From Eledone cirrhosa (lineage: Eukaryota), in assembly GCA_964016885.1 (NCBI GenBank), contig OZ024741.1:325748001-325812000 (forward strand): DNA of 64,000 nt, read 5' to 3'. Below the pieces are notes generated by a model, which made no database searches, was not told where the DNA came from, and saw only the letters and a program-made list of their open reading frames with translations. The position numbers and the translations under genes were made by a program. This document shows positions 1 through 48,000 of the stretch, one piece after another (position 1 is the first letter of the stretch; every line of letters starts with the position of its first letter).

Positions 1-3000
1 CACTCCATCAAACACTACCACAAACACACATACCGAAACACCACCACCACCACACAACATACCCTTACCCCACACACCTGACGATGATTATTCATCGACG
101 GATGAAGCTGCTTCTCCTTCTTTAAGTGAAGAGGGAGAACCGCGGAAATCCAAAAAACAAAAAAAGAGACACCACAAAACCCCCAGAACTCCAATCACCA
201 ACACCAACACACAACCACAGACACAAACAACAACACAAACAACACCACAGTCAAACATCCCCCTATCAGCAAAACCAGCACCAACACCACCCCAAACACA
301 AGCACCCACCATAAAAAGAAAACTCCCGGATGAACAACAAACTAAAACAATACAACAAAAACACAAACAACAATACGCATACATCAACACAAACAACAAG
401 AGTTTGATGGAGGTCATCTCCCAAAACCCCAAGGTGGAGACGGAGGGCAAAACTTTCGTCAAGGCAGAATCGTCTCCACACCTTAAACTTATAAGGGTTT
501 CTATGGAAACCTATAAAGACCTGAAAATTAAATTTTCACAGGACGTGGGCAACCCCTGCCACAAACCCATCAACCGCGTCCTGTTGAAAGGTTTCCCCAC
601 CCCACCCAACACCCCATCCAGCACCCAAATGGAGATTGAACAACCCGATCTCCAGGAAACGAAAAGGTAAGTGCACCTTTCGTCCCTTTTCGCCAACTTT
701 TCTTCACCAACATGGCTGGTTTACGAGTTGGAACCGTGAATGTGCGTGGCCTAGGGATGCCCTGGAAACAGGGCCAACTTTTAAACGACCTTAGGTCACA
801 CAGTATGGATGTGATAGCCATCACCGAGTCCAGAATCCACAACAGGCAGCAACTAACCCCCATCTTCGACGACTTTGAGATCTACGCATCTCTCTGTCAG
901 CCAGGAGGTGGAGGTGGAGTGGCTGTCATGTTTCGGAAGAACCTGGACGTCGGAGTACAGCAAGTACACTTGGGCCCGGAGGGTAGACTGGTAGTCCTAG
1001 ACGTGAACAGTATCGGAGGTGGAGCCTTCAGACTGGTGGCCGTTTATGCCCCGACCGGGCAATCGCAATCACGGCCAGACTTCTTTAAGCGTCTAGAGTC
1101 TTTTCTGGGAACGTCTCGCTCCTTACTTTTAGTGGGGGACTGGAATGGTATCCTAGATGCACGATGGGACTATGTGGGAGCATGTCCCAGTAGAGCGGGG
1201 TGCAACAGCGTCAAAACTTTAACTGGCCGATAGGTATCGATTGGATTTCCCGACTGCACCACAGTGGACGTGGGTAAACCGCAGTGGGACATCTAGATCG
1301 TATTTAGATAGGTTCTTCATTAGAGAAAGGGACAAGGATATGTTAAGCTGTCCACGAATGCACATGGTTGCCTATTCAGATCACAAGTTAGTCGTCTGCT
1401 TAGTCAACCGTGATAGAATACATAGACAGGGTCCCGGATACTGGAAGCTGAACGTGTCGTTGCCGGCACGTAAAGCTTACAGTGAACGGATAAGTAAACT
1501 AGTCAAGCAACAGTTAACGGGAGCCATCGTCAACAATAGATGGTGGTACTCTCTCAAGAAAGCAATTAGAATAGAATCGATAGGGTATAGCAGAGAGTTA
1601 GCCTTAGAGAAAAACAGAATAGAAAGAGAACTAGTAGCCAAGGTAGAGGAGGCACTTAGAAGTGGCAACGCGGCTAGAGTGTTAGCGTCGAGAACGGCAC
1701 TGGACCATTTCTTCGATGCGAAACACGAAGGCTGCGTGGTCAGAAGCAAAACACGTGCTCTAGGAATCGAAGGAGCGAAAGCTGTCAGCTGGGCCCGAGT
1801 GGCGGAGGCAAAAAGTGGCAACAAGTCCACGATTCGGTCTTTGAAAGACCAAAACGGACGCGTGCTACTTGACCCCAAGCAAATGTGCGCGGCCTTTCAG
1901 CGGCACTTTGCGCGACTGTTTGAGCAGAACAACGGTGAGGCGAACGGGGCAATGGACTTTAGTTCATACCTCGACGGCCTGCCGCGTCTCTCGAACACGG
2001 ACGCCGAGTTCTGCGAAAGACCGATCACGGACACTGAGATACGGGACGCTCTGGGCCGCTGCGGGAAACGCAAGTCACCCGGTCTAGATGGTCTACCCTA
2101 CGAATTTTATATAGGCATGCCGGACTTGTTCTCTGGCGTCCTCGAAGCCGTCTACTGCAATTGGCAGCAGAACGGGAGAATTCCCAGTTCTGCAGGCAAG
2201 GGCGTAGTAACGCTGATCAGGAAAGACGAGAACAAGGGGGACGAAATTAACAACTTCAGGCCCATAACTCTGCTCAACACAGAGTTAAAGATTTTGGCCA
2301 AGGTGCTAGCGACGAGGTTGGCGCTTGTCGTCGAGAATCTGGTAGGGAAAGCGCAAACGTGTGCACTCCCGACCAGGTCCATACACGACAACCTCCACCT
2401 CATGCGATACATCATAGAGAGGGTGGGTAGTAAACCCGACTTCGGTGGGGCTCTGATCAACTTGGATCAGTCTAAGGCATTCGATAGGGTCGACCATCGA
2501 TACTTGGAAGCGGTTCTCAAGGCGGCCGGTTTCGGTCCCGTGTTCAGAGGATGGATCGAGGCGATGCACACCAGCATCTGCTCGAGGGTCAAGGTGAACG
2601 GCTACCTATCGGAGCCGTTTGCAATCACGCGTTCCATTCGACAGGGATGCCCTCTCTCCTCCATTCTGTATGTATTGACTCTAGAGCCACTACTGCGGAA
2701 ATTGGAGCTGTTGCAGGGCATCCCCCTAGAACCGGGACTGCGCAAAGGGGCGTCGGCTTATGCCGACGACGTGACAGTAATAGTGTCGAGCACCTCGGAA
2801 ATCGGGGTGATCGGCAACATACTGAAAGAATACGAAACGCTGACGGGAGCAAAACTAAACCCAGACAAGTCTGTCGGTTTGCAACTCGGTACGTGGAGAG
2901 GCAAACCGATGACATCCGACAGCGTCGTTGGACGCTGGACGGACGGACCGGTGAAATTGCTCGGGGTCTGGTTCGGTCCAGACCTCCAGGTGGAGAAAAA

Positions 3001-4583
3001 CTGGAACGAGGTCACGGTCAAGGTGTTTGAACTCACTCAGAAGTGGGCAGAGTGCAAACTGTCCTTGAAATGTCGAGTGGAGGTGGCGAACACTTTCATA
3101 GCGTCCGTCATCTACTACCGATTGACTGTCGTGCCTTGTCCCCGTGAACACCTCGCCAAGATGGAACGCATGTTCTTCCAGTTTCTGCTCGGGGTCTGGT
3201 TCGGTCCAGACCTCCAGGTGGAAAAGAACTGGGACGAGGTTACGAACAAGGTGTTTGCACTAACCCAGAAATGGGCCAAGTGTAAGCTGTCCCTAAAAGG
3301 CCGGGCGGAGGTGGCGAACATTTACATAGCGTCCGTACCTTACTACCGCCTGACTGTCGTGCCTTGCCCTAAGGAAACACTCACCACCATGGAATGCATG
3401 CTCTTCCAATTTCTTTGGAAGAAGCGCCCTCCTATGGTGAGAAGATCCATCTGCTGCTAACAACCTTCGAAAGGAGGGCTGGGGATGCCGTGGTTGATGA
3501 TGCGTAGGCACGCATTAAGGCTACGGCACCTACAGGTATCCCTCACTGGTCAACCGGTGTGGGCTCCGTTCGTGAAACGAGCCTTCCCTAGACTCGTCTC
3601 GCTCACCGAGCTGCAGTCCTGGGTCAAGAAAAGATCCGGAAAACTGGGAGACTGGCACACTGAGTGTGCTCAGGCGCTCAGGGCTCTCTGGCAAGCGGGC
3701 CAGGCCATCGGTGGAAAATCCTTCTCATCATTCTATAGAGGGCTGGTGGCTAGCAGGGGCGATGACACCCTTGGAGAGTCGCTGGACATGGAGGAGGACG
3801 AACTGGCCAGCCTGTTCGGTAGGACTTTCGGCCCGGGACCAATGGACAACTTCCAGAAGTCACTAGCCTGGCAGTGCTACCGGGGGGCTCTACCCGTTCG
3901 AGAGAGGCTCTACAGACACGGGCGCCCGGGCAGGGATCCCTCAAAAAAGATTTGCCCTAGATGCGTGCGTCACGAAGAAACCGTTGCGCACGCATTGGTG
4001 CAATGTCCGGGCGTGGCTGATCTGTGGGGCTACGCTGAACGACTGCTGTCGCGGGTGGCGCCGATTCAATTGACCGCCGAGTCCGTGATGACAATCAAAC
4101 CGCCTCCCCTCTTCACAAAGGAAGCAAAGGCGGTTTTTCTGTGCGTGATAGCCATGTTGAAAGAGGTTGTTTGGTGGACACGATTGAAAGGTCTGAGGTC
4201 AGGCAACTTCCTCTCTGGCCATAGTCTGGTCTACTTCTTCCGATATCACTTCGGAAGAAGGATAAGAATGGAGAGAGAGGTGCTTGGCCACAGCCAGTTT
4301 TATGAAACGTGGGTGATAGTGGCGAGAATGGCTCGTGTAAATGGGCCTTCTCTGTATACCATCCTGTAGGTAAAGAAGTGAAGGAGAGGGGAGCACCTTC
4401 TCCATATGCTCCCTGGGCAAAGGATTGCACACTTTTTCGGGGATGTGTGCAACCCCCATCACGTCCCCTCCCTTTTGAGGTTATTTTCGATTATTTTCAT
4501 TTTATACCCTTTTTACTCGATTGTATGTAAACTCCCCCTTTGTATTTGTACCTTCTTTTTATGCCTTTATGGTAAATAAAGAA
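1..4583 (+). mobile_element. L1/Tx1-clade non-LTR retrotransposon (5' end outside window), disrupted
   Basis: ORF1 tail ending at 670; ORF2 with APE endonuclease (TVNVRGL, ITES, LVGDWN, SYLDRF, SDH), RT (SPGLDGL, FRPITLLN, QGCPLS, AYADD) and C-terminal CPRC..EETVAH..QC; 3' UTR ends AATAAAGAAA then (TATC)n. Confidence 0.93.
712..4369 (+). pseudogene. Tx1 ORF2 (APE-RT-zinc finger), broken near 1233 and 3460
   Basis: ORF pieces 712..1233, 1241..3460 and 3485..4369 are consecutive ORF2 domains; contains an in-frame 76-aa duplication. Confidence 0.9.
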
Positions 4584-5890: not shown

Positions 5891-5940
<50 letters not shown>

Positions 5941-5945
<5 letters not shown>

Positions 5946-6645
5946 TCAGGTTATCAATAATGTAGTGATAATATATCGTTACGTTAGAGATGAACAACGT
6001 ACGTGCAGGTTTGCTCAACGAGTATAAATTATATTCCGGAGAAAATGTAGAAAGGATGAATATAAAATGAAAGTGCTTTTGTTAAAAAAGGAATTTATTA
6101 GGTATTGACATATGTTTCTGTAACAGACCGAATACCTATGTATCGCTGCTTGCGTAATGCATATACCAGCTGGATACTAGCATTGAAGTTATTTAGTAGC
6201 AATCGAAATCTCCCCCTTCCCCAATTGACACTTTATAATTAATACTACTGCACCAAATGACCAGCCCTGTCCACTGTCCAGTTGGTCAAGTAGAGATTAA
6301 AATTGGCACTCCCAAAATTCTTATTTAGATTTACTCATGGTATACTCATTAGAAACCCATTATATACTTGTTTAGCAGTAAATTAATTTACCATCTGTCA
6401 TATACTATCCCCTCTGTTCCTTCCTCTTTTACTAATATAAATACTTCAATTTTTCTGATTTTATCCAATTTATCCAAAATCTCTGAAGAAGTGACAACTG
6501 ATTATACATTTGCTATCGAATGCTTACTAACATTATATGATTACGCAAGCAGCGATACATAGGTATTCGGTCTGTTACAGAAACATATGTCAATACCTAA
6601 TAAATTCCTTTTTTAACAAAAGCACTTTCATTTTATATTCATCCT

Positions 6646-6650
<5 letters not shown>
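5941..6650 (-). mobile_element. Fold-back non-coding element in (TA)n, Penelope pLTR/retrozyme-like (family 1)
   Basis: 111-bp inverted repeat 6048-6158 / 6540-6650; unpaired tail 5941-6047; (TA)n on both sides; tail and arm similar to 9196-9320. Confidence 0.8.
6476..6596 (+). ncRNA. Hammerhead ribozyme-like motif with long stem II (stem I decayed)
   Basis: CTGAAGA 6483-6489; stem II GTGACA/TGTTAC around a ~90-nt domain; GAAA 6580; palindromic CATATG; GTC site 6589-6591; stem I does not pair. Confidence 0.6.
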
Positions 6651-6744
<94 letters not shown>

Positions 6745-7007
6745 ATGTGCGTGTGCGTATGTGTGTGTGTATCTGTGTTTGTGTGTGTTTAGTTATGTAA
6801 TATATACCATTGTGTAATATGATTGTGCGTTGGATAGCAATTATATATGAAATATTGCGTTTCTTATTTCTAGCTGTTGCTTCGTCAATTCTTATTGCTA
6901 TTATTATATTTTTTGTTGTTGCTATCTTTATTTTGTAATTGCATTGATGTTATACAACAGATCCATGAATGGTGGGTGTGGGGCTAGTGTTGACTTGCGT
7001 AACATTG

Positions 7008-7135
7008 ATCATCATCATCATCATCATCATCACCATCATCATCATCACCATCATCACCATCCTTCTCCTCATCATCATCGTTATCGTTATTATTGTTGTT
7101 GTTGTTGTTGTTGTTAATATTATTATTATTATTAA

Positions 7136-7196
<61 letters not shown>

Positions 7197-7366
7197 TTTA
7201 TTGTTATTATTGTTATTATGTCAAAGAAATGATGAAGTATCTCTTGACTTGCTGCATATGATATAGATTGTAATTATAGCAACACAAAAGTCAAAAGAAC
7301 GATAAACTCCTCAAAAATGATAATAAATATAATATTCCTCAAAGAATTGAATAACGAAGATGATCA

Positions 7367-7438
<72 letters not shown>

Positions 7439-7509
7439 CACTACTACTACTACTACTAATACTACTGCTACTGCTGCTACTACTACTACTACTACCGCTA
7501 CTGCTACTG

Positions 7510-7567
<58 letters not shown>

Positions 7568-7571
7568 AACA

Positions 7572-7635
<64 letters not shown>

Positions 7636-7752
7636 ATGATAATAATAACAACAACGATAATAATAATAATAACAATGATAATGATGGTGATGATGATGAT
7701 GATGACGATGGTGACGATGATGATGATGATAATGATGATGATGATGATGGTA
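7008..7752. repeat. Compound trinucleotide microsatellites (ATC, GTT, ATT, ACT, GAT)
   Basis: Direct reading. Confidence 0.95.
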
Positions 7753-7883
7753 ATATTTCTTTATTGGCCAGAATGCACCAATATAAATGAGACAAAGCAT
7801 CTGATACAATAGACGTAAAAAACATGTGGTTATGGACCTATGCGTGTGCATGCACATACACACATACCCACGCACATATATAT

Positions 7884-7989
<106 letters not shown>

Positions 7990-8152
7990 TATGTAGAAAA
8001 AGATAACACACGAGAGAGAGAGTGTGTGTTTATCAATGTACAGGAAAAACCACCAATGTATGGAATCTATAAACTAAGAAAAATGACGTAGACGCATAAT
8101 AATAAAAAATATAAATCAGACTGAATTTACCCACTTTTATAACTATATATCA

Positions 8153-8231
8153 CACACGTACAAACTCAAAGAGATTTGTTTCGCCAACAGATTAGTGTAT
8201 GGAATGAAACACGCAGGTTGATCAGCGTGTG
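8153..8231 (-). ncRNA. Type I hammerhead ribozyme, G8C-mutated copy
   Basis: Stem I CACACG/CGTGTG; core CTGATCA; GAAA; stem III ACAAA(T)CTC-TTT-GAGTTTGT; GTA site. Confidence 0.7.
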
Positions 8232-8332
8232 ATAAGTTTACTGTCCCATGCTCACATTTCCTTCTCTCTACCACGTGTTGCAATGCAGTTATCTTAAGTT
8301 CCTTTAGAGTTGTCTGGAATGTATTCACTTAC

Positions 8333-8411
8333 CACTTGTTGATGAACCTGCGTGTTTCATTCCATACACTAATCTTTTGGCGAAACAAATCTCTTTGAGT
8401 TTGTACGTGTG
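8333..8411 (+). ncRNA. Type I hammerhead ribozyme, mirror copy (core TTGATGA)
   Basis: TTGATGA 8339-8345, GAAA 8382-8385, GTA 8403-8405; the consensus of the two arms restores CTGATGA. Confidence 0.65.
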
Positions 8412-8685
8412 TTATATATAGTTAAAAAGGTTGGTAAATTCATTCTGATTTATAATTTTAATTATTATGCGACTAACTCACCTTTCTTAGTTTATAGATT
8501 CCATACATTGGTGGTTTTTCCTTACATTGATAAACACACACACTCTCTCTTTCGTATGTTATCTTTTTCTAGATATTATATTTGAAGTGTCCAGGATTCT
8601 TTTTCCTTTGAGCTCATAAATTACAGGGACTAACGCGAGTTTATGACTACGTTAATTTTTTAAAATATACATATGTATATGTATC

Positions 8686-21189: not shown

Positions 21190-21231
<42 letters not shown>

Positions 21232-21233
<2 letters not shown>

Positions 21234-21940
21234 AGAAACCACCGCAAGATTGCAGAGGAGGAATACGCATAGGCAGATTAGCTGGTACAACCCTCCCTTC
21301 AATAGAGAGGTCTCTGCACCAATAGCTAGGAATTTCTTCACTTTGCTGAAAACACACTTCCCCATACAACATAGGTACTACACCATCATTAATAAGAACA
21401 CAATAAGACTCTCCTACTCCACCACACCTAACTTAGCTAGGAATGTAGCCAACCACCTCCGAACCCAATCCCCGGACTGGGGCCTTGTGTAATTGCCTAA
21501 ATAAAGAAGCCTGCCCACTTGAAAAAAAATGCCTGACAAATGATATCGTATACAAATGTGATGTCATCTCAGGCACCGATGATTGCAATAACAAAAAGAC
21601 TTACATCGGCATGACTTCCAATAACTTTAAGACCCGTTGGTATTCCCATACCCACTCCTTCAGAGGATCGGACAAATCAAACCAGACAACACTCGCCTCC
21701 TATGTTTGGGACCTCAAAAGGAACTCCACCCCCTTCACGCTTAAATGGAAAATACTCCAGAAAGCGCGCTCTTACATCGGAGGACACAAGGGCTGCGACC
21801 TTTGTATCTCAGAGAGCTATCAAATTTTATTCGCCAAGGGCACGCTACTGAACAAACTCACTGAACACTGCCCGAACTGCATGCATAAGAACTTTGCAAT
21901 TTTCAAATACCTTAAGCCAGTGTTAATGCCCGATGGCTAA
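21232..21940 (+). pseudogene. Penelope-like element C-terminus (thumb remnant plus GIY-YIG endonuclease, Naiad-like), 5'-truncated and frameshifted
   Basis: WYNPPFN..INKNTIRLSYS; CNC..CPL..C..IVYKC..KTYIGMT..FKTRW..H..SF..TLASYVWDLK..W.IL..CDLCISE; starts immediately after (TA)n. Confidence 0.88.
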
Positions 21941-22079
21941 AAACGACTTCCCACTTTTAGCCCCTCTACCTCCTTCCCACACCACCCCAGCCCTCCTCAA
22001 CCTGAAATACGGTCACTATGGTTATGTGAGTACCTCTTACATATCTGCATTTTCTGCCTGTAGAGCTGTTTTTATGTGC

Positions 22080-22479
22080 CTGTGTATATGCGTATATTTA
22101 TGAGTAGTTATTTGTATATATGTATATATGTGTATATGTATGTATATGTGTATATATGTATATTTTATATATATGTGTGTGCATATATATATATATAGAT
22201 ATGTATATATGTATATATGCATGTATATATATATATATATGTGTATATGTATATATATGTATATATATATGTGTATGTATGTGTGTATGTGTATATGTAT
22301 GTATGTGTATGTATGTATATATGTATATATCTGTGTATGTATTTATTTATTATTATATATATATTTATATATATATATATATATATGTGTGTATATATAT
22401 TTATGTATATATTTATGTATGTGTATGTTTGTGTATATGTGTGTATATATGTATGTATGTGTGTATGTGTGTATATATA

Positions 22480-22949: not shown

Positions 22950-23000
<51 letters not shown>

Positions 23001-23005
<5 letters not shown>

Positions 23006-24105
23006 ATAATAATAAATTTGAAGACTAAAATCCAAAGAGGGCTCGATAAGGATAAATATATATCAAATATATAAGAACCGTAGAGCAAATATTTATTAAA
23101 ATAACAGATTAAATTTTAAGCAAAGAATCGCTGCTTTCACCCTTAACTGGATCTTCTGAAACTAACAAAGTCAATCTGTAAACGCAGAAGTGGATATTTC
23201 AAAAAACGTTCCAACCGGAGGAAGACAGGAAGACGATACTTTGGTTCGTGGAAACATTCCCTGGCAAAGAACGGGAAAAAACGAATATAATACGTCATTA
23301 ATAGAGGCTGTGAAAAACAATTACGCGCAAAGACAGAACGACGTTTATGGTATAAAAGAAGTCGTAGACTAATGTTCTCTTAGGTGGTTCATAGAGACGT
23401 TCTCTGGCAATGAACGGAAAAAACGAAGATAATACGTCGTATGTGGAGGGTGGAGAACAATTGCACGCAAAGACAAAACCACGTAAATGGTATAGCAGAA
23501 GTCGTAGACTAAAATTCTAACTAGGAAACCGAATGAATCTCCGCTTCAGAGTTAAGAATAAAGTAAATAAAATACAATACAGAGGTAATAGAAATTAAAT
23601 AAATACATGCACGCATACAAATACGTACATACACAAGCATACGCGAAGACACTTGCCATAGGTATACAAAACCACCAATATAAATATGTGTGTGTGTGTG
23701 TGCGTGTATACAAATAAATAAATAATTAAATAAACGTATATAAATAAATAAATACGTATATAACAAGCGCACACACAGACCTACATGTAATTGTTTTTCA
23801 CAGCCTCTATTAATGACGTATTATATTCGTTTTTTCCCGTTCTTTGCCAGGGAACGTTACCACGAACCAAAGTATCGTCTTCCTGTCTTCCTCCGGTTGC
23901 AACGTTTTTTGAAATATCCACTTCTGCGTTTACAGATTGACTTTGTTAGTTTCAGAAGATCCAGTTAAGGGTGAAAGCAGCGATTCTTTGCTTAAACTTT
24001 AATCTGTTATTTTAATAAATATTTGCTCTACGTTTCTTATGTATTTGATATATATTTATCCTTATTGAGCCCTCTTTGGATTTTAGTCTTCAAATTTATT
24101 ATTAT

Positions 24106-24110
<5 letters not shown>
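23001..24110. mobile_element. Fold-back element in (TA)n (family 5)
   Basis: 324-bp arms 23001-23324 / 23787-24110; internal ~140-bp diverged tandem pair 23243-23512. Confidence 0.88.
23948..23998 (+). ncRNA. Hammerhead-like motif with CAGAAGA core
   Basis: AGTTT-CAGAAGA-TCCAGTTAAGGGT-GAAA-GCAG..TTGC-TT-AAACT; mirror copy at 23113-23163(-); homolog at 57309-57359. Confidence 0.6.
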
Positions 24111-24175
<65 letters not shown>

Positions 24176-25074: not shown

Positions 25075-25719
25075 GACCAGGGGGAGTTATAAACAATATA
25101 TTGAGAAACACACAGATACATGCGGACTGTTTATAACTCCCCCTGGTCGAGTAATCCTTGAAGTGTAGTGACTGCTGGAAAGCTGCCATTACTCATACTT
25201 CTTGCCTCCTTAACCACCTCTTCTACGGCCTCGATATAAATATCCCCTCCGCCTCCGTGGTATTTTTTTCAGGGTTATAAGGGGCTTAGCTCTGTTTCTT
25301 GACCGTTGTATCACGTGATTGACTCCCCTCCGCCTTTTGGGATTCTATCTCACATCTTATAGACGTGTTCTTTGAAGCTAGTAAAATGAGGTATCCTCTT
25401 GATAAGTCGGCAGACCTCACAAAGGCTCTATATCTCTGTGATGTATTGTTTTTGATTATGCCACGAAACTACGCAGTCGAGGAATCTAGTAGCAGTTTAG
25501 GTATGATACATCTTATTACTAATTATATCTAAATGTTTCTTCTCTCTTCATAATGTACTTTTAGCTCTGATACTGGTTCAGTCTAATCCATTCGGATTGG
25601 TTTGTCCCAGTTATTCATAGAGCAACATCGGTTAAGGTTGGCACCATTAACTCAGGGATGGATGTGGATATATTCATGTATATGTATGTGTCCGCATGTA
25701 TCTATGTGTTTCTCAATAT

Positions 25720-25724
<5 letters not shown>
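25075..25724 (+). mobile_element. Retrozyme-like element (family 6): one 594-nt monomer plus an inverted junction fragment
   Basis: 25075-25127 read on minus joins the end (25690-25724) to the start (25128-25148) of the plus-strand unit. Confidence 0.8.
25394..25483 (+). ncRNA. Type I hammerhead ribozyme, U3-A8 core variant, long stem II
   Basis: TCCTC-TTGATAA-GT(C)GGCA...TGCCAC-GAAA-CT ACGC AG-TC-GAGGA; predicted cleavage after 25478. Confidence 0.78.
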
Positions 25725-25772
<48 letters not shown>

Positions 25773-26146: not shown

Positions 26147-26153
<7 letters not shown>

Positions 26154-26319
26154 AAAAAAAGATGAAATCGAAAATGCAACTGGAGACTTATTTAAAATAT
26201 ATATATATACTTTTTTTAAAATAAGACTCCAGTTGCATTTTCGATTTCATCTTTTTTTCTTTATACCTTCAACGTGTATGACACCTCGGTTATTTTTTAT
26301 TTTGTTAAAAAAACCTCAC

Positions 26320-26326
<7 letters not shown>
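26147..26326 (+). mobile_element. Miniature fold-back element in (TA)n
   Basis: ~51-bp arms 26147-26197 / 26214-26265 plus a 60-nt tail; same architecture as the larger ones. Confidence 0.7.
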
Positions 26327-30561: not shown

Positions 30562-32885
30562 TAATAATGGTTTCTTTATTGGCCACAAGGGCTAACATGA
30601 AGAAAAACATTACAGACGGCACAGGACGATACAAAGTGGATTTTGGCCGTGTAAAAAGGTTATAAAAGACAGAAACGTGTAAAATAAATTAAAAAACAAA
30701 AAAATTCCCCAATAAGGGGGAAGCTTCCAACGGTCACTCGTGGCGAAACCACACAAAAAACCACGGCCACCCTGATCACCCGGGCAAGCGCCCTCTTTCA
30801 GTTTTCCCACTCCTTAGTCTACAGGCGCATCGGACTAGATTCGCCACTTTCACCCACCTTTCAACAAACTTACTAGAAGACAGCACCTTCCTCTCCACCC
30901 TGATTTTCCTCTTCAAGTGAAACTTGAAAAAGTTAATCAGGGATTGGCCGGAGAGGAAAGTGTCCGTCTTCAACCCTTTCAACCTTATCCACCACACAAT
31001 CTCTTTCATCATGGCCACCAGGCAGATGAAGACTGCTTGCCCTTCCTCCTCTTTAAAGGAGGATGGCGGGGTTATCTGCACAATGGACTCAGTCGATAAC
31101 CGGATCTGTCCTACACGTGACAGCAACTGTTCGACATAGCTCCACATGTCAGCAATTCTCGGGCACTGAACGAGTGCGTGCAGGACGGTTTCGCCGTCCT
31201 GCGCGCATCTCGGACGGGCTCGGCTGACAGCACCCCCGTACCTGTAGAGCTTATCCCGAACCGGCAACGCTAGCACCGAAACGGTAGCACTGTCAGGCCA
31301 GGGATTCTGGAAATTGTCCTTAGGCCCCAGGTTGAAAATTCGCTTGAAGAGAGCAAACAGCTGATCGTCTTCGACGCCCAGGGTCTCCCCGAGAACGTCG
31401 TTGCCCTTCCTCTCCACTAGCCCTCTATAGAATGCCAAGGTGGATGTTCCACCGATATCAGTGCCCAGCTGGTGGAGGGCGGTAAGCGCTTGGAGACATT
31501 CCAGCTTCCAAGCGCTATCCCTCGGTCTTTTGCTGATCCAGGACTGCAGCTCCGTCAAGGAGACGAGCTGCGGAAAAGCGTGTCTGGCAAACGGCGACCA
31601 CACCTGTTCACCGTCAAGGAAGCACCAGAGATGTTGCAGCCTCAGCGCATATTTGCGCAACTTCAGCCACGGCATACCCAGTCCTCCACGCAACGGGTTC
31701 CGACAGCAGATGGATCGTTTGATCATGGGAGCACGTCCCTTCCACAAAAAGCGGAAGAGAAGGCGCTCCATTTTAGTCAGAGTTGGACGGGGCAAGGTAC
31801 GACGGTCAGGCGGTAGCAGATGACAGACGCGATGTACGCATTCGCCACCTCCGCTCGACTTTTTTCAGAGATAGCCTCCTCTCAGCCCATTTCTGGGTGA
31901 GAGAAGCCACCCAGATCGTCACCTCGCTCCAGTTTTTCTCCATCTGGTGGTCCGGACCGAACCAGACCCCAAGCAATTTAACCAGTCCTTTCATCCAGCG
32001 CCCCACGATGCTGTCGGACGACATGGACTTGCCTCTCCAGGTGCCGAGTTGCAATCCTACCGACTTTTCCTGGTTTATCTTTGCTCCTGTCACCGCTTCG
32101 TATTCCTTGAGAGCGGTGCCGGGCTTCTGAACGTGTTTGGTGCTCGACACTACCACGGTGACGTCGTTGGCGTAAGCCGACACGGATCTTCCGCATCTCA
32201 GTTCGCGAGGTACCCCCCTCATGGTCTCCAATTTGTGTAGTGATGGCTCGAGGGCCAGTACGTACAACGAGAGAGGACAACCTTGGAGCACCCAGCGCAT
32301 GATGCTGAACGGCTCTGAGAGGTGACCATTCACCCTCACAATCGAGCAGATGTTGCTGTGCATCGCAGCGATCCAGCCTCTAAAAACAGGCCCGAAGCCG
32401 GCCGCCTCGAGGGCCGCAGCCAGGTACCGATGGTCGACCCTGTCAAATGCTTTATATTGATCCAAGTTAATCAGGGCCCCACCTGTGCCAGGTTCCTTAA
32501 CGACCCTGTCTATGATGTATCGCATGAGATGGAGGTGGTTGTGGATGGATCTGTCAGGAAAGGCGCATGTCTGCGCCTCTCTCACCAGATCACCGACGAC
32601 AAGCGTCAATCTCTTTGCTAACACCTTGGCCAAAATCTTGAACTCTGTGTTTAGCAGAGTTATGGGCCTGAAGTTGTCTATAACGTCCCCTTTGTTCGGG
32701 TCTTTTCTCAGCAGCGCCACCGCTCCCTGGGTCACAAAACTGGGAATGCTCCCGTTCTGCTGCCAGTTGCAGTAGAGATCTGCCAAGAGGTCGCCGAACA
32801 AGTCTGGCATGTACGCATAAAGCTCGTAGTGTAGATCATCCAAACCTGGCGATTTACCTCTCGTACAGTTAGACATCGCTTCCAC
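30562..32885 (-). mobile_element. Tx1 LINE 3' half (RT to 3' UTR)
   Basis: ORFs 31806..32885 and 30776..31795; ends AATAAAGAAACCATTATTA. Confidence 0.9.
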
Positions 32886-32892
32886 ATAAATA

Positions 32893-33007
32893 TAATAATT
32901 GTTTCTACTTTAGGCACAAGGCCAGAAATTACTCAGTGCATTACTGGTACTTTATTTTATCGACCCCGTAAGGATGAAAGGCAAAGTCAACCTCAGCGGG
33001 ATTTGAA
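32893..33007 (-). mobile_element. SINE 3' part
   Basis: Homologous to the 14263 family. Confidence 0.8.
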
Positions 33008-35872: not shown

Positions 35873-38800
35873 CTTTCTTTATTAACCACAAGGGTTTACA
35901 TAAAGTATACATTAAGGACAGTACATGACAATACAGGACAGTACAAATGAGGATGTAAGAAAAAAATAACAATGAAAAATTCCCCAATACGGGGGAGACT
36001 TCCGAGGGACATTCGTGGAGAAAGCCCATTAAAAAAGCCACAGTGACCCTGACCACCAGGGCAAGTGCCCTCTCACAGTTTTCCACCTTTAATTTACAGA
36101 CACATACTCAGAGTAGGCCCATTCACTCGGGCCATTCTTGCCTCTCTCACCCATCTTTCAACAAAATTCTGGGAAGAGAGCACTTCCCTCTCTATTCTGA
36201 TTTTCCTTTTCAAATGAAATTTGAAAAAGTTAATCAGGGCATCACCGAAGAGGTAAGTGCTCGTCTTCAGCCCTTTCAAACGTGTCCACAATACTATCTC
36301 TTTCGCCATGGCCACCAGACAAATAAAAACTGCCTGCCCTTCCCGGCTAAAGGAAGAGGGCGGGGCAATCCCCATGATGGACTCAGCTGCTAGCTGGATC
36401 AGTCCTACACGCGACAGCAGATGTTCGACATAAACCCACAAGTCAGAAATGCTCGGACACTGGACGAGTGCGTGCAGGACGGTTTCGTCGCCCTGCGCGC
36501 ATCTTGGACACGCCCGCTTGACGGCACCTCCATGCCTGTAGAGTTTATCCCGAACTGGCAAAGCTCCTCGGTAGCACTGCCAGGCCAGGGATTTCTGGAA
36601 GTTGTCCATAGGCCCCGGCCCGAAATTTCTTCCGAAGAGATTGGCTAGTTAATTTTCGTCGACGCCTAGAGTTTCCCCAAGTACGTCGTCGCTCTTCCCC
36701 TCCACTAATCCTCTATAGAACGCCAAGGTGGAGTTTCCACCGATCACATCGCCCAATTGGTCGAGGGCTGTGAGCGCCTGAAGACATTCCAGTCTCCAAG
36801 CGCTTCCTCTCGGTCTTCCCTAGACCCAGGACTGCAGCTCCGTCAAGGAGACGAGCTGGGGAAAGACGCGTCTAGCAAACGGCGACCACACCTGAGCACC
36901 GTCGAGGAAGAGGTGGAGATGTCGTAGCCTGAGCGCGTGTCTGTGCATCATCAGCCACGGAATGCCCAGCCCTCCACCATAGCGGGTGTTGACAGTAGAT
37001 GGACCGCCTGACCATCGGAGCGCGTCCCTTCCACAAAAAGCGAAAGAGCAAGCGCTCCAGCGCAGTCAGGCGGGGCTTAGGACAAGGTACGACGGTCAGG
37101 TGGTAGTAGATGACGGACGCTATGTACGCGTTAGTCATCTCCGCTCGACCTTTCAGGGATAGTTTCCTCTCCGCCCAATTTTGGGTGAGAGAAGCCACCC
37201 TGCTCGTCACCTCGTCCAAGTTCTTGTCCGTCTGGAGGTCCGGACCGAACCAGATCCCTAGCAATTTAACCGGTCCGTCTTTCTATCGCCCGACGACGCT
37301 GTTGGGCGGCATGGACCTGCCTCTCCAGGTGACGAGATGCAGGCCCACTGACTTTTCCTGGTTGATCATTGCTCCTGTCACCGCTTCGTATTCTCTTAGT
37401 GTAGTGCCGATCGCCTCGATGTGTTTGGCGTTCGACACCACTACGGTGACATCGTCCGCATATGCTGACACGGATCTTCCGCATCCTAGTTCGCGCGGGA
37501 CGCCCCTCAAGGTCTCCAGTTTGTGCAGTAATGGCTCGAGAGTCAATACGTACAAGAGGGACGAGAGGGGATATCCTTGGCGGACCGAGCGCATGATGTT
37601 GAACGGTTCCGAAAGGTGACCGTTCACTCTCACCACAGAGCAGATGTCGCTGTGCGTGGCAGCGATCCAGCCTCTGAAGACGGGCCCAAAGCCAGCCGCC
37701 CCCAGGACTGCCGCTAGGTAACGATGGTCGACCCTATCAAAAGCTTTCGACTGATCTAAATTGATAAAGGACCCACCCGTGCCAGGTTCCTTAGCTACCC
37801 TCTCCACGATGTATCGCATGAGGTGGAGGTTGTCGTGGATGGATCTGTCGGGAATGGCGCATGTCTGCGCCTCTCCCACCAGACCACCAACGACAAGCGC
37901 CAACCTCTTTGCTAGCACCTTGGCCCAAATCTTGAACTCTGTGTTTAGCAGAGTTATGGACCTGAAATTATCTATGTTATCCCTCTTGCTCGGATCCTTT
38001 CTCAGTGCCACAGCTCATCGGCTCACAGAGCTGGGAATTATCCCGTTCTGTTGCCAGTTGTAGTAGACGTCCGCCAAGAGGCCTCCGAACCAGTCTGGTA
38101 TCTGTACGTAAAGTTCATAGGGCAGAGCATCCAAACCAGGCGATTTACCCATTGTGCAGCCAGTCATTGCCTCCCGTACTTCAGCGGCTGTTATCGGCTT
38201 TTCGCAACACTCCGCCTCAGTGGCTGAGAACCGCGGCAGTCCGTCGATGTAGACACTAAAGTCCATCCCTCGATCCGGCCCGCCGCTGCCCCCGAACAGC
38301 TGAGCGAAGTGTCGCTGAAAAGCTTCACACATTTGCCCTGGATCGAGTAGCATGCGCCCGTCGTGGTCCACCAAAGACGGGATCGTGGCTTTGTTGCCAC
38401 GACGCGCCTCCGCCACTCGGGCCCATTGAACGGCTTTCGTCCCATCGAGTCTGAGAGCACGCACCCTAGCTCTGACAACGCAGCCTTCGTGCTTTGCATT
38501 GAAGAATTGGTCAAGGGCCAATTTCGCCGCAACTACGTCGGTCGCGATGCCTTTGCTAAGCGCCTCGTCTAATTTTCTAACTAGTTCTCCTTCTGCTCTA
38601 TTTTTCTCTATTACTAAAACCTTACTAAACCTAATGAACTCTATTCTAATCGCTCTTTTCAGAGCAAACCACCACTTGTTGTTGAATATGGCCCCCGTCA
38701 TCGCCCACTTAACAAGTTCGCTAATCCGGTCTCTGTAGTCCTTGCGCGCTGGTAAGGATGCGTTTAGCTTCCAGAAGCCGGGTCCTCGTCTATGCAGCCT

Positions 38801-41715
38801 ATCTAAGTCAAGCACACAGATCACGAATTTGTGGTCCGTGTAGCTGACTATCTTGAATTGTGGACAGCCTATGCTAGACCTATCTATTTCCCTACAAAAT
38901 ACTCTATCTAGATATGATCTTGATGACCCTATGTGATTTGTCCAAGTCCACATTGGCACATTCGGAAAATCCAATCGGTACCTGTCAGACAGTTCAAAAC
39001 GCCTGAGCAGGTTGGTGAGGCTCTTGCACCCTCCTCCCCTATCCGCTAGTCCCACACAGTCCTAGCGTGCATCTAAGATCCCGTTCCAGTTGCCCACTAA
39101 CACTAAAGAACGCGACGTTCCAAGAAAGGTCTCCAGACGCCGGAAGAAATCAGGCCGCCCTGCTCCTGTCGGGGCATAGACGGCCACTATCCTGTAAACT
39201 TGCCCGTCTCCGCTGGTCACGTCCAGCACCACCAACTAACCTTCTGGGTCCAGGAAGATGGCCCGTATGGCGAGATCCAAACTTCTCCGAAAAAGCACAG
39301 CAACTCCTCCCTCCGATCCAGGACGGCTGGGAGATGCGTACACATCGTAGCCGCCTAAGATCGGTGCGAAGGCCCGTGCTTCGGAGATTCTGGTCTCGCT
39401 GATGGCTACTACATCTATGTTTAGTGACCTGAGGTCGTTGAGCAGGTGGCCCTGCTTCCATGACGACCCCAAGCCACGCGCATTTATGCTGCCTATTTTG
39501 AGTGAGGTCATGTTGAAATGAGTGGAAAAGATGGGAAAGACCACTTACATTACTTCTCGTAGAGGAAGGATGGTTTCTCCATCCTTTTCACTGCTTGTGG
39601 CCTCCTCCGGAAGGATGTCCTTATAAATACTCCTGGAGAGTGCTTGTCAGAAGTCTCCGATGTCTTTGGGGAATTTTTGTTTTAGTGTCGTGTACGTTTT
39701 CTGTGCGATGCGAGTGATTTGTATGTGTGGAGGTGGTGTGAACTTTTGGGGTGTTGTGTAGTCTCTTTCTGTGATGCTGGTGTTGTGTTGGATGTAGTGT
39801 AATAGTTGGTTGTTGTGCAAATTTAATGCTGTGTAGTGTGTATCGTTTTGGTTTTGTTTTGTTTGCGTTTGTTATGGGTTTGTTTCTGTTTCGCTTTTTG
39901 GTGACTATTGTGGTGTTGGTGATGGTGGTGTTGGGGTTAATGATGGTGATGGTGTTGGTGTTCGTGGTGATGGGGTTGGTGATGCTGGTGTGGATGGTGG
40001 AATAGCTGTCCTAACTTTTTTGTGTGATAGTTTATTTGTTTCCTTCTGTATTTTGTTTTTGGAGGGGGAAGGAAGAGGATTTTTTCTTTTTTGGCTTCTT
40101 TTTCTTTTTTGTTTTTTTTTCTGATACCGTTTCCCACTCCTCGTCGTCACAATCTCTCTCCAGTTGCGATAGGTCGGGGAGTGGAAAATCCTCCACATGC
40201 GTTGGTTTTGGTTGTAGCGTGGTGGATGGTGTAGGCGCTGGTGCTAGTTCTGGCGCGTTGGGTGGTGGTGGTGGTGTTGGTTTTGCTACTGTTGCTGGGA
40301 TTGTTGCTGCTACAGTTGCTTCTGTTGTTGCAGCTACAGTTGTTGCTGCCATTTCTGCTGCTGGTGGTGTTGATGGTTGAGTCACTGGGGTGGGTAAGGG
40401 AGGTGGCCTCAACTTTTTAACATGAGGGCAGAAAGCCCTTAGGTGGGTTACTTCACCACAAACGACACGCCTAGGCCTTCTACTCTCGACGATTACGGTG
40501 AGGTGGCTGCCGTCAGTGAGGTCTATTACCTCTGGGATCTCCTCAATGCTTTTTTGGTCCGCTTGGATCAGGATCTCCATCCCAGATCCGGACCATTTCT
40601 CCTGCTTTTCTTTCGCTATTTCGATTATCTTGGTGTTGGCCTCGATGCCGGTGAGGACGGCAGCCATTAGCCAGGGAGTTTCGATGGCCGGTGGAACGTG
40701 GGTCATCCTGATCTTCACGAGTCTCTGGCCACAATAGCTTGGGACGAGTATGAAGTCGTCACTTCTTCATGGGGCCATGGAGTGTTCTCTGGCCTCCTGT
40801 GGTGTTCCAAAGAACACGTCCAGGGCTCCATATTTCTGCCCTCGTTTGATGTGGGTTTTTTTGCCCACACATGTCCCAAAGCGTTTTGCATTTGGGACTC
40901 TGATGCCCGTTCCACTCGGCGCGATTTTATGTTAATCGTCCGATAAGACACGGTGCATAGGCGCCGAAGCTCTATTTTATTATGTGTGTATGTGTGTGTG
41001 GGGGGGGGGGAGGCTGACCCTTTCCATCTTTCTTTATCATTCTCTTGGCTTCATCTAAATCCTCCTGAGTTACCTGGATTATTTCGCATTGTTTGGCTGC
41101 TTTGGCAAACGACACGGTTTGTTATTCTCATTGTTGTTGTTGCTGTTGTTGTTATTGTTATTTTTGTTATTGTTATTTTTAGTATCAGTTGTGGTGGTGG
41201 TGGCGTCAGTGGTGTTCGGTGTGGAAGAGTCGATTCTGGGTGAATCCATTTCGATGTCACGAGATAATTTCTTTTGTTTCTGTTGTCCCTGTGGTGGTGG
41301 TGGGGGTGGCGGCTTCAACACCTGCAGTCATTGGTAATGGCGGGAAATGGAAATGAATGTCTGCATGAGACAAATTTAAATTATTGCTACTGCTTATATT
41401 TTTAGTGTTGGCAAACGTAGTAATATTTACAATGGTGGTGTTGGTGTGAGGTGTTAGTTTGTGAGGAAGGCTGTCAGCCTGGTGTAGCTGTGAGTCATCC
41501 ATGTTTTTTCAAACTAATATTTTGTTTGCTAATTATAAAAGTTTAAATTTTGGGCTCAAGGCCCCAATCTTTTTGAGTGTCCTTTTCCGAAAGCAAATTA
41601 TGTGACCTTATAAACACTTAACAACAAAAATGTTCCATAAATGGCAATTTGAAACAACTGAAAACAACAAACCTTTGCGGAGCTCACGATGATACGATTT
41701 CCTACGTAGGTCGCC
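35870..41715 (-). mobile_element. Full-length but disrupted Tx1 LINE, bounded by (TAA)n on both sides
   Basis: 5' UTR from 41715; ORF1 from ~41502 with knuckle VVCGEVTHLRAFCP; ORF2 from ~39511 (APE, RT AYADD, CPRC zinc finger) to 36094; 3' AATAAAGAAAGC(ATT)n. Confidence 0.92.
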
Positions 41716-45049: not shown

Positions 45050-48000
45050 TTGTTTATGTGTGTCCGTATACAGCGTGGTGATAATGTCACACAAGGGCCA
45101 AGTGGGATGGCGGATCCACAGATGGCTATGTAAACATACATTCGCCAATCCTCGATAAGAGTGTTTAAATATCGAACATAAACAGTTCGAATAACGGTGA
45201 AATGGAGACTAGAACGTCATGTGACAGACTCTCACCCAACAGGTGCCCCCTGGCTCAGCAGCAGGAACCTGACTGTCAACCAAATACTGCTGATGTTGGA
45301 GGAAGAAGAAGAAGGAAAGGGGCCAGAACCAACTGGACGAAAGAATTGAATAGAACTGTTATGCAATGCTACCTGAAAAGTAACCCCAAGGAGAGGGGCT
45401 ACAGGAGACGGATGCATAACATCTGGAACGAGATTGGTTTATTTAAATTAGATGAACAAAAATTGGCCGGGCAGGCTCGGGTAATAAGAACTAATGGGTG
45501 GATAAGCGAGCTGGAACTGGAGGAACTGAGCAGAGAGAATGGCTTGGAGATGGCGGGTGTAGTATGCCAGACAAGCGAGCCAGCGGGAAATGAAGGTGAG
45601 GAGGTCCTGAGAACGGAGGAACCACCCGAAGCAGACAATGATCTGAATACTGAGATAAATAATACCTGGAACAGAGATACGGCCACTGAGGAGATGAATG
45701 CTGACGGGCTAGGACAAGATTCGGTTGACATCCTAAATTTAGTGGTAGATGAGTTGAACAATGATAGTGGGAGACCTATGAACCTAAGATTTGTAGACAG
45801 GAAAAAGTTAAAAGAAACAACAGCTAAGGTAAACAAAGTCATCCCATACCTTGAGGCGAGGAGTCTTCACCAGTGCAACAATATCCTCAAAGCAACAGCA
45901 AATACGGTGAGGAAACTACTTGGTATAAAAGCGAGAGGAAACAACAGACAAGAAAGAGCAGAGCCGTGGTGGAAGAAGCGACTGAGTGGGCAAATCGGGG
46001 AAATGAGAAATGACATAGGAAAGCTTGAGTCACTACTGAATGGGACACTAAAAAACATAGGCACTAAAAATAGACTGGAAATAAAATACAAAACTAGGAG
46101 TAAAAAGCTAAATATTATCATAGAGGAATTGAAGCAACGCATTGTAGCAAAGAGTGCCAAAATCAGGCGATACGAGAACAGAGTCAGTCAGTATAAACAG
46201 AACCGCATGTTCGACAACAACCAGAAGATGCTGTTTGGACAGCTTGAGGGGAAAGAAAGAGGCAACGACTTGATCCCTGGGGCGGAACAAGCTAAAACAT
46301 TCTGGAGAGGAATATGGGAGCAGGATGTTAGACACAATGCCCAGGCAGGGTGGATTGAGACAGTACAGAGGGAGATCGGTGAGCAGGCACAGCAACAGAC
46401 TGATTTGAGTATCACAGTTGAAACTCTTAAGGGGCAAGCCAAAAAACTAACCAACTGGAAATCACCAGGCCCAGATGGTGTGCAGGGGTATTGGATTAAA
46501 CATTTAACATCCCTCCACCCGAAGCTGACGGCCATGTTCAATGACTGCTTGGTGTCGGGTGAGGTGCCAGAGTGGTTGACAAAAGGTACCACAGTTCTGA
46601 TAATGAAAGACCGAATCAAGGGTAATGATGTTACCAACTATAGACCTATCACATGTCTGCCCGTAATGTGGAAACTGTTGACGAGCATTGTGTCTGAGGA
46701 AATCTACCATCACCTCCACACAAACAACTTGTTGCCGGACGAACAGAAAGGATGCCGAAAGAAGTCACGTGGTACAAAGGACCAGTTGCTTATTGATAAG
46801 ATGGTAATGGGGAATTGCAGGAGGAGACACACTGATCTTGCCATGGGATGGATAGACTACAGAAAGGCATTTGACATGGTGCCTCATTCCTGGATCACCA
46901 AAAGCCTGGAGATCTTCAGGGTGGCAGATAACATCAGACAGTTGCTGGGCAGGAGTATGGGGTCCTGGGAGACAGAGTTGACATCAACTGGAGTATCCTT
47001 GGGAAGCGTGAAGATCAAGAGAGGTATCTTCCAGGGAGATAGCCTGTCCCCTCTGTTGTTTGTCCTTGCCCTGATGCCCTTGACCATTATGCTGCGAAAA
47101 GTGAGAGCAGGATACAAGTTGGGAAGGGGAGAGCTTACCATCAATCACCTCCTCTTCATGGACGATCTTAAGCTATTCGGGAAAAGTGAGAAGGAGTTGG
47201 ATGTGCTTGTTGACACTGTCCGTATTTTCAGCAGTGATATATGTATGCAGTTTGGTATTGGTAAATGTGGAGTCATTGTGATGAGGAGGGGTAGGTTGAG
47301 CAGAAGTAACGGGATCCAGATACCAACAGGTGAGATGATAAAGGAAATTGACTCTGAGGAAGGATACAAGTATTTGGGCGTTCTGGAGGCTGATGGCATC
47401 AAGAACAAAAAAATGAAGGAATTGTTAAGAACTGAATACATTCGGAGAGTAAGGAGCGTATTGAAGTCACATCTGAACAGCAGAAATGCCATAAGCGCAG
47501 TAAATTCCCGAGCTGTCTATTATTAGGTACAGTGCGGGAATTCTGAGATGGAATGTTGCTGAACAAAAAGAAATGGATAGGAAGACTAGGAAGCTATTGA
47601 CTATCTACAACATGTTCCACAAGAGGAGTGATGTCGATAGACTCTACCTAAGGAGATCTGAGGGTGGAAGAGGGCTTATCAGCATAGAGGACTGTGTTCA
47701 GATGGAGAAAAACAACCTATACAAATACGTGACCTATAGTAAGGAGCCAATGCTCAGAGCTGTACTGAAGGAGGGGACAGTAGGCCAGGGGATACCCAAG
47801 GAGGAAATAACATCAAGGAGGAAGAGCAGCCTTAAGGGAAAATCCCTTCATAGTACCTTCTTTGAGAAAACTGAATTTAGAGATCCACAGACATGGAACT
47901 GGTTGAGAAGAGGAGACCTCAAAAAGGCTACAGAAGGAATGCTAATGGCTGCGCAGGAGCAGGCCCTCAAAACGAAGTGGTTGAAGCACCATATCTACAA

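What the first reader, a model, noticed from the sequence alone, without database searches (positions are those of the whole stretch)
25075..25724. 594-nt circularly permuted monomer carrying a U3-A8 variant hammerhead
Seen: the plus unit runs 25128-25721. The inverted 53-nt piece in front (25075-25127) reads across the end-to-start junction (…CTCAATATATTGT|TTATAACTCCCCCTGGTC), so the template was circular or tandem with a 594-nt period. The single hammerhead has TTGATAA instead of CTGATGA, a double change that preserves the 3-8 pair, plus a ~59-nt stem II domain. Established: the 3-8 tertiary pair tolerates U-A. Inference: a retrozyme/circRNA larger than typical metazoan ones.
Basis: partly seen in the sequence, partly recalled or inferred. 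Interest (0 to 1): 0.85.

Follow-up and report, generated by a model that had tools for sequence, protein, structure and literature searches.

The report
Mini Penelope retroelement with two starts
This is one damaged copy of a roughly 594-base, non-coding jumping element with thousands of copies that carries a predicted self-cutting RNA motif of an already known variant type; the unusual part is that its mirror-image insertions almost always end at two different fixed points about 165 bases apart, four times the spacing known for such elements, which likely records how the copying enzyme starts on both DNA strands.

Summary
In detail: a 594-nt unit (25128-25721), an inverted 53-nt piece that reads across the unit junction (52/53), and a type I hammerhead motif with a U3-A8 core and a 59-nt stem II domain. 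U3-A8 is the family state (6,311 genome matches; C3-G8 0), but it is already described in nature, also in Penelope-like elements (PLEs). The unit belongs to an ORF-less family found as tandem and head-to-head insertions in (TA)n: a non-autonomous PLE (non-LTR retrozyme). 594 nt lies inside the published size range. This copy has one hammerhead, a broken loop-3 palindrome and a truncated left arm, so it is unlikely to make a circle. New: arms end at two fixed sites about 165 nt apart (published 'tail' 30-40 nt). In 31 of 31 head-to-head insertions with canonical ends, one arm uses each site; 16 of 31 cannot be fold-back copies; 0 of 89 arms stop at the ribozyme cut. This points to paired priming at two sites on an uncut or circular RNA. 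Cleavage, circular RNA and the driver element are not shown.

The parts
25075..25127 (-). Remnant of the inverted (left) arm: unit 563-594 plus 1-21. Its outer end is non-canonical; by the family rule it would have run to end E1 (unit ~430), so about 409 nt were probably lost (inferred)
   Evidence: 52/53 match across the junction; family rule; left flank is (TG)n/G-run, not (TA)n
25128..25724 (+). Direct (right) arm, one full unit, ending at E2
   Evidence: 94-98% identity to the 39 other best full-length copies scored
25394..25483 (+). Type I hammerhead motif, predicted cut 25478/25479
   Evidence: pairing checked; core and stems 4/44 variable columns vs 148/562 elsewhere across four subfamily representatives, Fisher p=0.006
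25399..25405 (+). Core with U3-A8 in place of C3-G8
   Evidence: 6,311 U3-A8, 8 C3-A8, 8 U3-G8, 0 C3-G8 in the same 19-nt context
25406..25464 (+). 59-nt stem II domain: 6-bp stem with bulged C, closing an inner hairpin 25420-34/25440-54
   Evidence: the bulge is the only commonly variable core/stem II column (C106:T14); covariation not clearly above shuffles (21/500)
25468..25477 (+). Stem III/loop 3. A perfect 10-nt palindrome in the family (would allow dimer cleavage); broken here by a T>C change at 25474
   Evidence: 29 of 30 close copies keep T; self-duplex -12.9 vs -3.5 kcal/mol
25525..25558 (+). Conserved run-up to alternative 3' end E1 (unit ~427-432, 79 nt after the cut); internal in this copy
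   Evidence: 49 of 107 census arms end here; contig loose ends into (TA)n at 25557; 1/34 variable columns
25558..25722 (+). ~165-nt 'tail' between E1 and E2, predicted to fold into hairpins 25564-25623, 25630-25652 and 25656-25703
   Evidence: z -4.5 to -5.0, 0 of 200 shuffles as stable; 99.5% of cells paired in 18 sequences but covariation not above shuffles (34/500)
25689..25724 (+). Conserved run-up to 3' end E2 (unit ~594-600), the end used by this arm
   Evidence: 52 of 107 census arms end here; 0/25 variable columns; contig loose ends at 25721
25725..25769 (.). (TA)n target microsatellite
   Evidence: same flank at nearly all canonical ends printed

Best explanation
This is a decayed copy of a high-copy, ORF-less family of ~594-nt units found as tandem and head-to-head insertions in (TA)n, likely a non-autonomous Penelope-like element (non-LTR retrozyme) moved by the RT-endonuclease of an autonomous PLE. 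Shown: copy number, tandem period, (TA)n flanks, two fixed 3' ends ~165 nt apart, one of each end per head-to-head insertion, arms that run through the ribozyme site. Inferred mechanism: a PLE protein (probably a dimer) nicks both strands of (TA)n and primes two cDNAs, one at E1 and one at E2, on RNA that is intact at the hammerhead site; the two cDNAs are joined at their truncated ends. The template is most likely a hammerhead-cut, re-ligated monomer circle made from loci with two or more units (about 55%), otherwise an uncut multimer transcript. The long tail probably folds out so that the two start sites sit about as close as in ordinary PLEs. The driver is probably a Neptune-type PLE but was not identified.
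For: Copy number 5,905-8,423 by three exact patterns, reversed controls 0. Census of 72 insertions on C1: 101 of 107 arms end at E1 or E2; 35 two-armed, 31 of 31 with two canonical ends are E1+E2 (16 left-E1, 15 left-E2; binomial p 5e-10), 4 have a non-canonical end; single arms 17 E1, 19 E2, 1 other. Replicates: 17 E1+E2 and 3 with another end among the 20 two-armed top hits (one locus shared with the census); 18 E1+E2, 1 E1+E1, 1 other in loci. In 16 of 31 neither arm is contained in the other and 3 are disjoint. 0 of 89 arms that reach the cut stop within 8 nt of it; 45 of 107 exceed 600 nt. Variants private to a locus: 33 shared by all its units (22 across both arms), 82 single, 2 partial. 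Autonomous RT+GIY-YIG families in the same genome show the same rule with 40-nt (7 of 7 pairs read) and ~63-nt tails (12 of 13). Literature: PLE partial tandems, inverted 5' copy, 30-40 bp tail often at one end, (TA)n bias (PMC8557442, passages); tail = distance between two RT start sites in vitro, predicted dimer (PMC11167929, parts 1-2 of 4).
Against: No autonomous element sharing DNA sequence with the unit was found among families A, B, N, Hydra-like or among 83 short-stem U3-A8 pattern matches; similarity of the cut-to-E1 segment to the Neptune-type U3-A8 family is not significant (p=0.56). 12 of the 33 shared private variants come from one locus of a thinly sampled subfamily, median within-locus divergence (0.44%) is only a little below nearest-other-locus divergence (0.62%), and homogeneous donor arrays could mimic a circle. 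Covariation in the tail and stem II extension is not above shuffles. One E1+E1 (28-nt arm) and one E2+E2 in the control family. Target-site duplications cannot be read in (TA)n. In PAc the hammerhead was dispensable for insertion in vitro and no strand difference in RT start site was seen.
Confidence: 0.82

Rival explanations
1. The copies are ordinary 5'-truncated pseudo-LTR stubs of an autonomous PLE, not a family of their own.
For: This is the usual origin of scattered PLE hammerheads (PMC4209133, parts 1-2 of 4) and the verdict of several earlier scan notes in other genomes.
Against: The unit closes on itself with a 585-597 nt period in five subfamilies down to 81% identity; arms reach 2,907 nt of pure unit repeats; the 107 census arms map to unit multimers and their printed 5' flanks are microsatellite, the partner arm or unrelated repeats.
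Confidence: 0.05
2. The two ends come from one priming event: the inverted arm is a fold-back copy of the first cDNA, trimmed by the endonuclease at the other site.
For: Self-priming and EN-mediated resolution are proposed in PMC3846280 and PMC8557442 (passages); 15 of 31 pairs have one arm inside the other; both arms share private variants.
Against: 16 of 31 pairs have sequence in each arm that the other lacks, 3 are disjoint; later trimming of both 5' ends could rescue the model only in part.
Confidence: 0.2
3. The template is always an uncut linear multimer read from genomic arrays; the hammerhead is nearly inactive or acts only late, and no circle exists.
For: No arm stops at the cut; PAc uses unprocessed RNA in vitro; 8 of 9 Xenopus retrozyme dimers did not cleave; minimal PLE hammerheads cleave poorly.
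Against: Core and stems are conserved against the rest of the unit (p=0.006), the dimer palindrome is kept in all subfamilies, and private variants are shared by all units of a locus far more often than by some (33 vs 2).
Confidence: 0.4
4. A satellite spread by DNA-level mechanisms (unequal exchange, extrachromosomal circles) with an incidental hammerhead.
For: Tandem units; satellite expansion is discussed for retrozymes.
Against: Dispersed short insertions about 1 per Mb, fixed 3' ends, variable 5' ends, head-to-head arms and (TA)n targets identical to resident autonomous PLEs.
Confidence: 0.03

Closest known systems
Metazoan non-LTR retrozymes (Cervera and de la Pena 2020, PMC7229834; Li, Clavereau and Pollet, bioRxiv 10.64898/2026.07.22.740005)
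   Same: Non-coding tandem units with one type I hammerhead each, low GC (40%), monomers to multimers, co-occurring with PLEs; length inside the 51-972 bp range of the preprint.
   Different: Longer than the ~200-400 nt RNAs tested in 2020; U3-A8 core and 59-nt stem II domain; PLE-type head-to-head arms and two fixed ends are documented here; circular RNA and a homologous parent pLTR are not shown.
EN+ Penelope-like element insertions with pLTR, inverted 5' copy and 'tail' (PMC8557442, PMC3846280; PAc in vitro, PMC11167929)
   Same: Partial tandems, inverted 5'-truncated copy, (TA)n target, hammerhead upstream of two alternative 3' ends, tail at one end only.
   Different: No ORF; tail ~165 nt instead of 30-40 nt; the one-of-each rule is counted here rather than described as 'often' or 'optional'.
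PLE hammerheads with U3-A8 (Schistosoma Cercyon, PMC4209133; natural U3-A8 covariation, PMC3088659)
   Same: U3-A8 core, bulge near the 5' side of stem II, small palindromic helix III.
   Different: Helix II there is 7-8 bp; here it carries a 59-nt domain. Activity of this motif is untested.
Neptune-type autonomous PLE in the same genome (L210, L219, L380)
   Same: U3-A8 core, palindromic stem III, E1 77-81 nt after the cut (79 here), (TA)n target, one-of-each ends.
   Different: Short stem II, ~63-nt tail, 776-aa RT+GIY-YIG frame; no significant DNA similarity in the cut-to-E1 segment. Clade name from recalled motifs (linker Zn-finger), no tree built.

Membership tests
Type I hammerhead ribozyme | Core C/U3-UGANG/A8-A, GAAA, UH with 3-8 pair | tested here: met
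   U3-A8 in 6,311 vs 16 single changes
Type I hammerhead ribozyme | Three stems, stem I open | tested here: met
   one two-sided change in stem I, conservation p=0.006
Type I hammerhead ribozyme | Match to an Rfam hammerhead model | tested here: not met
   no hit at gathering score or E<=10; the long stem II probably defeats the models (inferred)
Type I hammerhead ribozyme | Self-cleavage | not testable with these tools
   needs a transcription assay
Non-LTR retrozyme | Tandem units each with a type I hammerhead | tested here: met
   met by the family; the window copy has one motif and would count as a solo monomer under the definition
Non-LTR retrozyme | No protein coding | tested here: met
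   no ORF of 120 aa or more overlaps the unit; a short frame from the ATG before the hammerhead is 17 aa in one subfamily and 48 aa in another
Non-LTR retrozyme | Expressed as circular and linear monomer RNA | not testable with these tools
   no RNA holder listed; indirect genomic signs only
Penelope-like element insertion | Partial tandem plus inverted 5'-truncated copy | tested here: met
   35 of 72 census insertions two-armed head-to-head; 45 of 107 arms over 600 nt
Penelope-like element insertion | Optional tail at one end, 30-40 bp | tested here: inconclusive
   tail behaviour met (31 of 31), length not met (~165 nt)
Penelope-like element insertion | Microsatellite targeting | tested here: met
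   (TA)n flanks
Penelope-like element insertion | Target-site duplication | tested here: inconclusive
   not readable inside (TA)n; same limit noted
Autonomous PLE | RT plus GIY-YIG ORF | tested here: not met
   so non-autonomous
Non-autonomous derivative of a named PLE family | Sequence homology to a parent pLTR | tested here: not met
   none among the five autonomous families examined; other families in the genome were not enumerated

The most novel reading that the evidence does not exclude
PLE integration is a concerted, asymmetric two-strand reaction: one protein dimer holds one RNA and primes the two DNA strands at two different sites chosen by RNA structure, not by linear distance. This family has stretched the spacer to 165 nt by looping out hairpins and is copied round a ribozyme-made circle, so it is a natural minimal substrate that reveals the mechanism.
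Probability: 0.35. Interest if true: 0.7.

Novelty: new variant of a known kind. Interest (0 to 1): 0.45.

Why it matters
How Penelope-like elements build their inverted, tailed insertions is named as an open problem in PMC8557442, and only one element has been reconstituted in vitro (PMC11167929). A young, ORF-less family with thousands of copies and widely spaced ends makes the two start sites easy to tell apart and gives countable rules (one of each end, arms not mere fold-backs, read-through of the ribozyme site). It also ties a retrozyme to PLE machinery by insertion anatomy rather than by homology, and shows hammerheads with long stem II domains that Rfam misses.

Tried and rejected
RNA evidence: no RNA holder listed; the three runs laid were contigs of one sample and only echo the two ends. 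Driver search: a Pfam accession recalled from memory was not in the library; protein searches with four PLE fragments and one DNA search gave five autonomous families, none with DNA similarity to the unit in the loci compared (for the U3-A8 Neptune-type family only the cut-to-E1 segment was compared); pattern searches for short-stem relatives gave deletion copies, the Neptune-type family and singletons; a search for a different continuation after E1 gave family copies only (29 of 30 loci mapped). Two apparent chimeras with other PLEs (L023, L301) have short shared letters at the joint and read best as later deletions. A coding reason for U3-A8 was dropped (frame not kept). A peak of 5' ends at the cut was absent (1 in unit 344-360 vs 3.6 expected). 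A stop of E2 arms at E1 seen in the top-hit set (9 of 23, p 5e-5) did not repeat in the census (2 vs 5 expected). Paper searches for prior description; none listed a paper describing a tail above 40 nt or a count of opposite ends, but the library lacks most subscription papers (e.g. the 2004-2008 Penelope papers), I read the key papers in part, and supplements were not seen (those of the bioRxiv preprint are closed; Repbase-type consensus files in supplements may hold this family or long tails). The term 'octopus' came from a recalled resemblance of local repeats and was not tested. Earlier scan notes by place and sequence: none.

Full report
1. Observation. The reverse complement of 25075-25127 matches the junction of a 594-nt unit at 52 of 53 letters. 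The hammerhead motif has all three stems, a U3-A8 core and a 59-nt stem II domain, with the cut predicted at 25478/25479; the constrained fold costs 0.8 kcal/mol over the minimum. Rfam finds no hammerhead here. The window is repeat-rich, with several LINE-type RT frames and many microsatellites.

2. It is a family. A DNA search of the own genome gave 3,252 candidates, 40 scored, all near full length at 94-100%. Exact patterns give 5,905 (hammerhead), 8,423 (E1 run-up) and 6,463 (E2 run-up) matches, reversed controls 0. In one 19-nt context the core is U3-A8 6,311 times, C3-A8 8, U3-G8 8, C3-G8 0. Four subfamily representatives are 79-96% identical and an older one is 81% identical to the window unit, still tandem (periods 591 and 585) and with U3-A8 in one unit of each locus. 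Core and stems vary at 4 of 44 columns against 148 of 562 elsewhere (p=0.006); across 119-129 unit copies the bulged C is the only commonly variable position of the core and stem II. Loop 3 is a 10-nt palindrome in 29 of 30 close copies; the window copy breaks it. Covariation in 13 hammerhead sequences is weak (1 two-sided pair; score reached by 21 of 500 shuffles).

3. Insertion anatomy. I took the insertion clusters listed on C1 up to 60.3 Mb (lists cut at 100 rows, exact matches only; two later clusters were not fetched, one local duplicate counted once, one weak 60-nt hit and one middle piece dropped): 72 insertions, 107 arms. 49 arms end at unit ~430 (E1), 52 at ~594-600 (E2), 6 elsewhere; canonical ends abut (TA)n. 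35 insertions are head-to-head. All 31 with two canonical ends have one E1 and one E2 (p 5e-10 against free choice, and single arms use the two ends 17:19). Further sets agree: 17 of 20 two-armed top hits are E1+E2, 3 have another end; 18 E1+E2, 1 E1+E1, 1 other. In 16 of the 31 neither arm lies inside the other and 3 are disjoint, so both arms were likely templated from RNA. None of 89 arms that reach the cut stops within 8 nt of it; 45 of 107 exceed 600 nt, the longest 2,907 nt. Among 39 loci with repeated coverage, locus-private variants are shared by all units 33 times (22 across both arms; 12 from one thinly sampled locus), single 82 times, partial twice. This fits a one-unit template such as a circle, but homogeneous donor arrays are not excluded.

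4. Controls in the same genome. An active autonomous family (3,127-nt unit, RT plus GIY-YIG) has two ends 40 nt apart, opposite in the 7 pairs where both can be read. A Neptune-type family with its own U3-A8 hammerhead has ends ~63 nt apart, opposite in 12 of 13 pairs, and its first end lies 77-81 nt after the cut, against 79 here and about 80 in a second ORF-less 483-nt family. A third autonomous family has a 56-nt tail. So the rule is general for PLEs here and the tail is elastic: 40, 56, ~63, ~110 (one example) and ~165 nt. The 165-nt tail folds strongly (z -4.5, 0 of 200 shuffles), leaving 16-40 unpaired exterior bases; pairs are kept in 99.5% of cells across 18 sequences, mostly by one-sided changes, with covariation not above shuffles (34 of 500). 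That hairpins restore a normal spacing is a hypothesis.

5. The window copy. Its right arm is one full unit ending at E2 in (TA)n. Its left arm should end at E1 but stops at unit 21 beside (TG)n; the intact form would have been a ~430-bp inverted repeat with a 32-nt spacer, and loss of most of one arm is the simplest reading (inferred). With one hammerhead, a broken palindrome and about six near-private changes it is an unlikely source of circles.

6. Mechanism. Shown: ends, pairing rule, read-through, tandem period. From literature: PLE tails mark two RT start sites and the protein is predicted to be a dimer that nicks AT-rich DNA on both strands (PMC11167929, parts 1-2 of 4). Inferred: a resident PLE protein primes one strand at E1 and the other at E2 on uncut or re-ligated unit RNA; dimer cleavage through the palindrome followed by ligation (as for retrozymes, PMC7229834, passages and Discussion) would supply the circle. 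No parent element was found; a Neptune-type driver is a guess from core and spacing.

7. What is known. U3-A8 occurs in nature and is stated to be active in vitro (PMC3088659, section 8 and passages) and was found in ~1,300 Schistosoma PLE motifs (PMC4209133, parts 1-2 of 4). Non-LTR retrozyme families span 51-972 bp and are argued to be non-autonomous PLEs (bioRxiv 10.64898/2026.07.22.740005, parts 1-3 of 5). Tandem/inverted structure, 30-40 bp tail often at one end, (TA)n bias and non-autonomous PLEs are in PMC8557442 and PMC3846280 (passages). My searches listed no paper giving a tail this long or a count of opposite ends; coverage is incomplete and supplements were not seen.

8. Verdict. 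A real element of a known kind. Interest 0.45.

Noticed in passing
window 26150-26326: Small head-to-head fragment of the Neptune-type U3-A8 PLE in (TA)n, left arm ending at its first end and right arm at its second; hammerhead not included.
   Followed up: partly
L210:5901-8760, L219, L380: Autonomous Neptune-type PLE with a short-stem U3-A8 hammerhead, a second U3-A8 family in this genome; 2,058 DNA candidates, best 40 at 96-100%.
   Followed up: partly
L104:1610-2487; L121; L210:449-955; L052/L053: Second ORF-less tandem family, period 483, C3-G8 hammerhead with a 53-nt stem II domain and palindromic stem III; ends ~80 and ~190 nt after the cut.
   Followed up: partly
L051:2654 (+) and L105:1668 (-): Single hammerhead-like motifs with 97-nt and 49-nt stem II domains; long stem II seems common here and would escape usual descriptors.
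   Followed up: no
L092-L105: Very young autonomous PLE (many copies 99-100% identical) whose minimal hammerhead mostly has C at position 4 instead of U (38 identical motifs).
   Followed up: no
window 22953-23324 and 23787-24158: 372-nt arms 98% complementary, flanked by (TA)n; a frequent repeat in other loci, probably another head-to-head insertion.
   Followed up: no
window 21230-22100: 3' fragment of a Hydra-like PLE followed by the long (TA/TG) tract that is part of that family's 3' region; clade name from recalled motifs.
   Followed up: partly
L004, L005, L009, L013, L014, L016, L019, L020, L023: In the window's subfamily 9 of 23 long E2 arms have their 5' break at unit 423-440, at E1 on the second pass (p 5e-5); not seen in the census. 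Unexplained.
   Followed up: partly
L190, L203, L206: Abundant Neptune-type family with an extra upstream frame, a 1-1.5 kb simple-repeat 3' region and no motif passing my hammerhead scan.
   Followed up: no
window 640-4369, 30776-32909, 35959-39061, 45169-48592, 50250-53506: Five broken LINE-type elements (RVT_1, one with Exo_endo_phos; zf-RVT in three).
   Followed up: no
L038:5705-5765: The joint of a 5+3-unit head-to-head array holds a run of 10-nt repeats of an element motif, like RT slippage.
   Followed up: no
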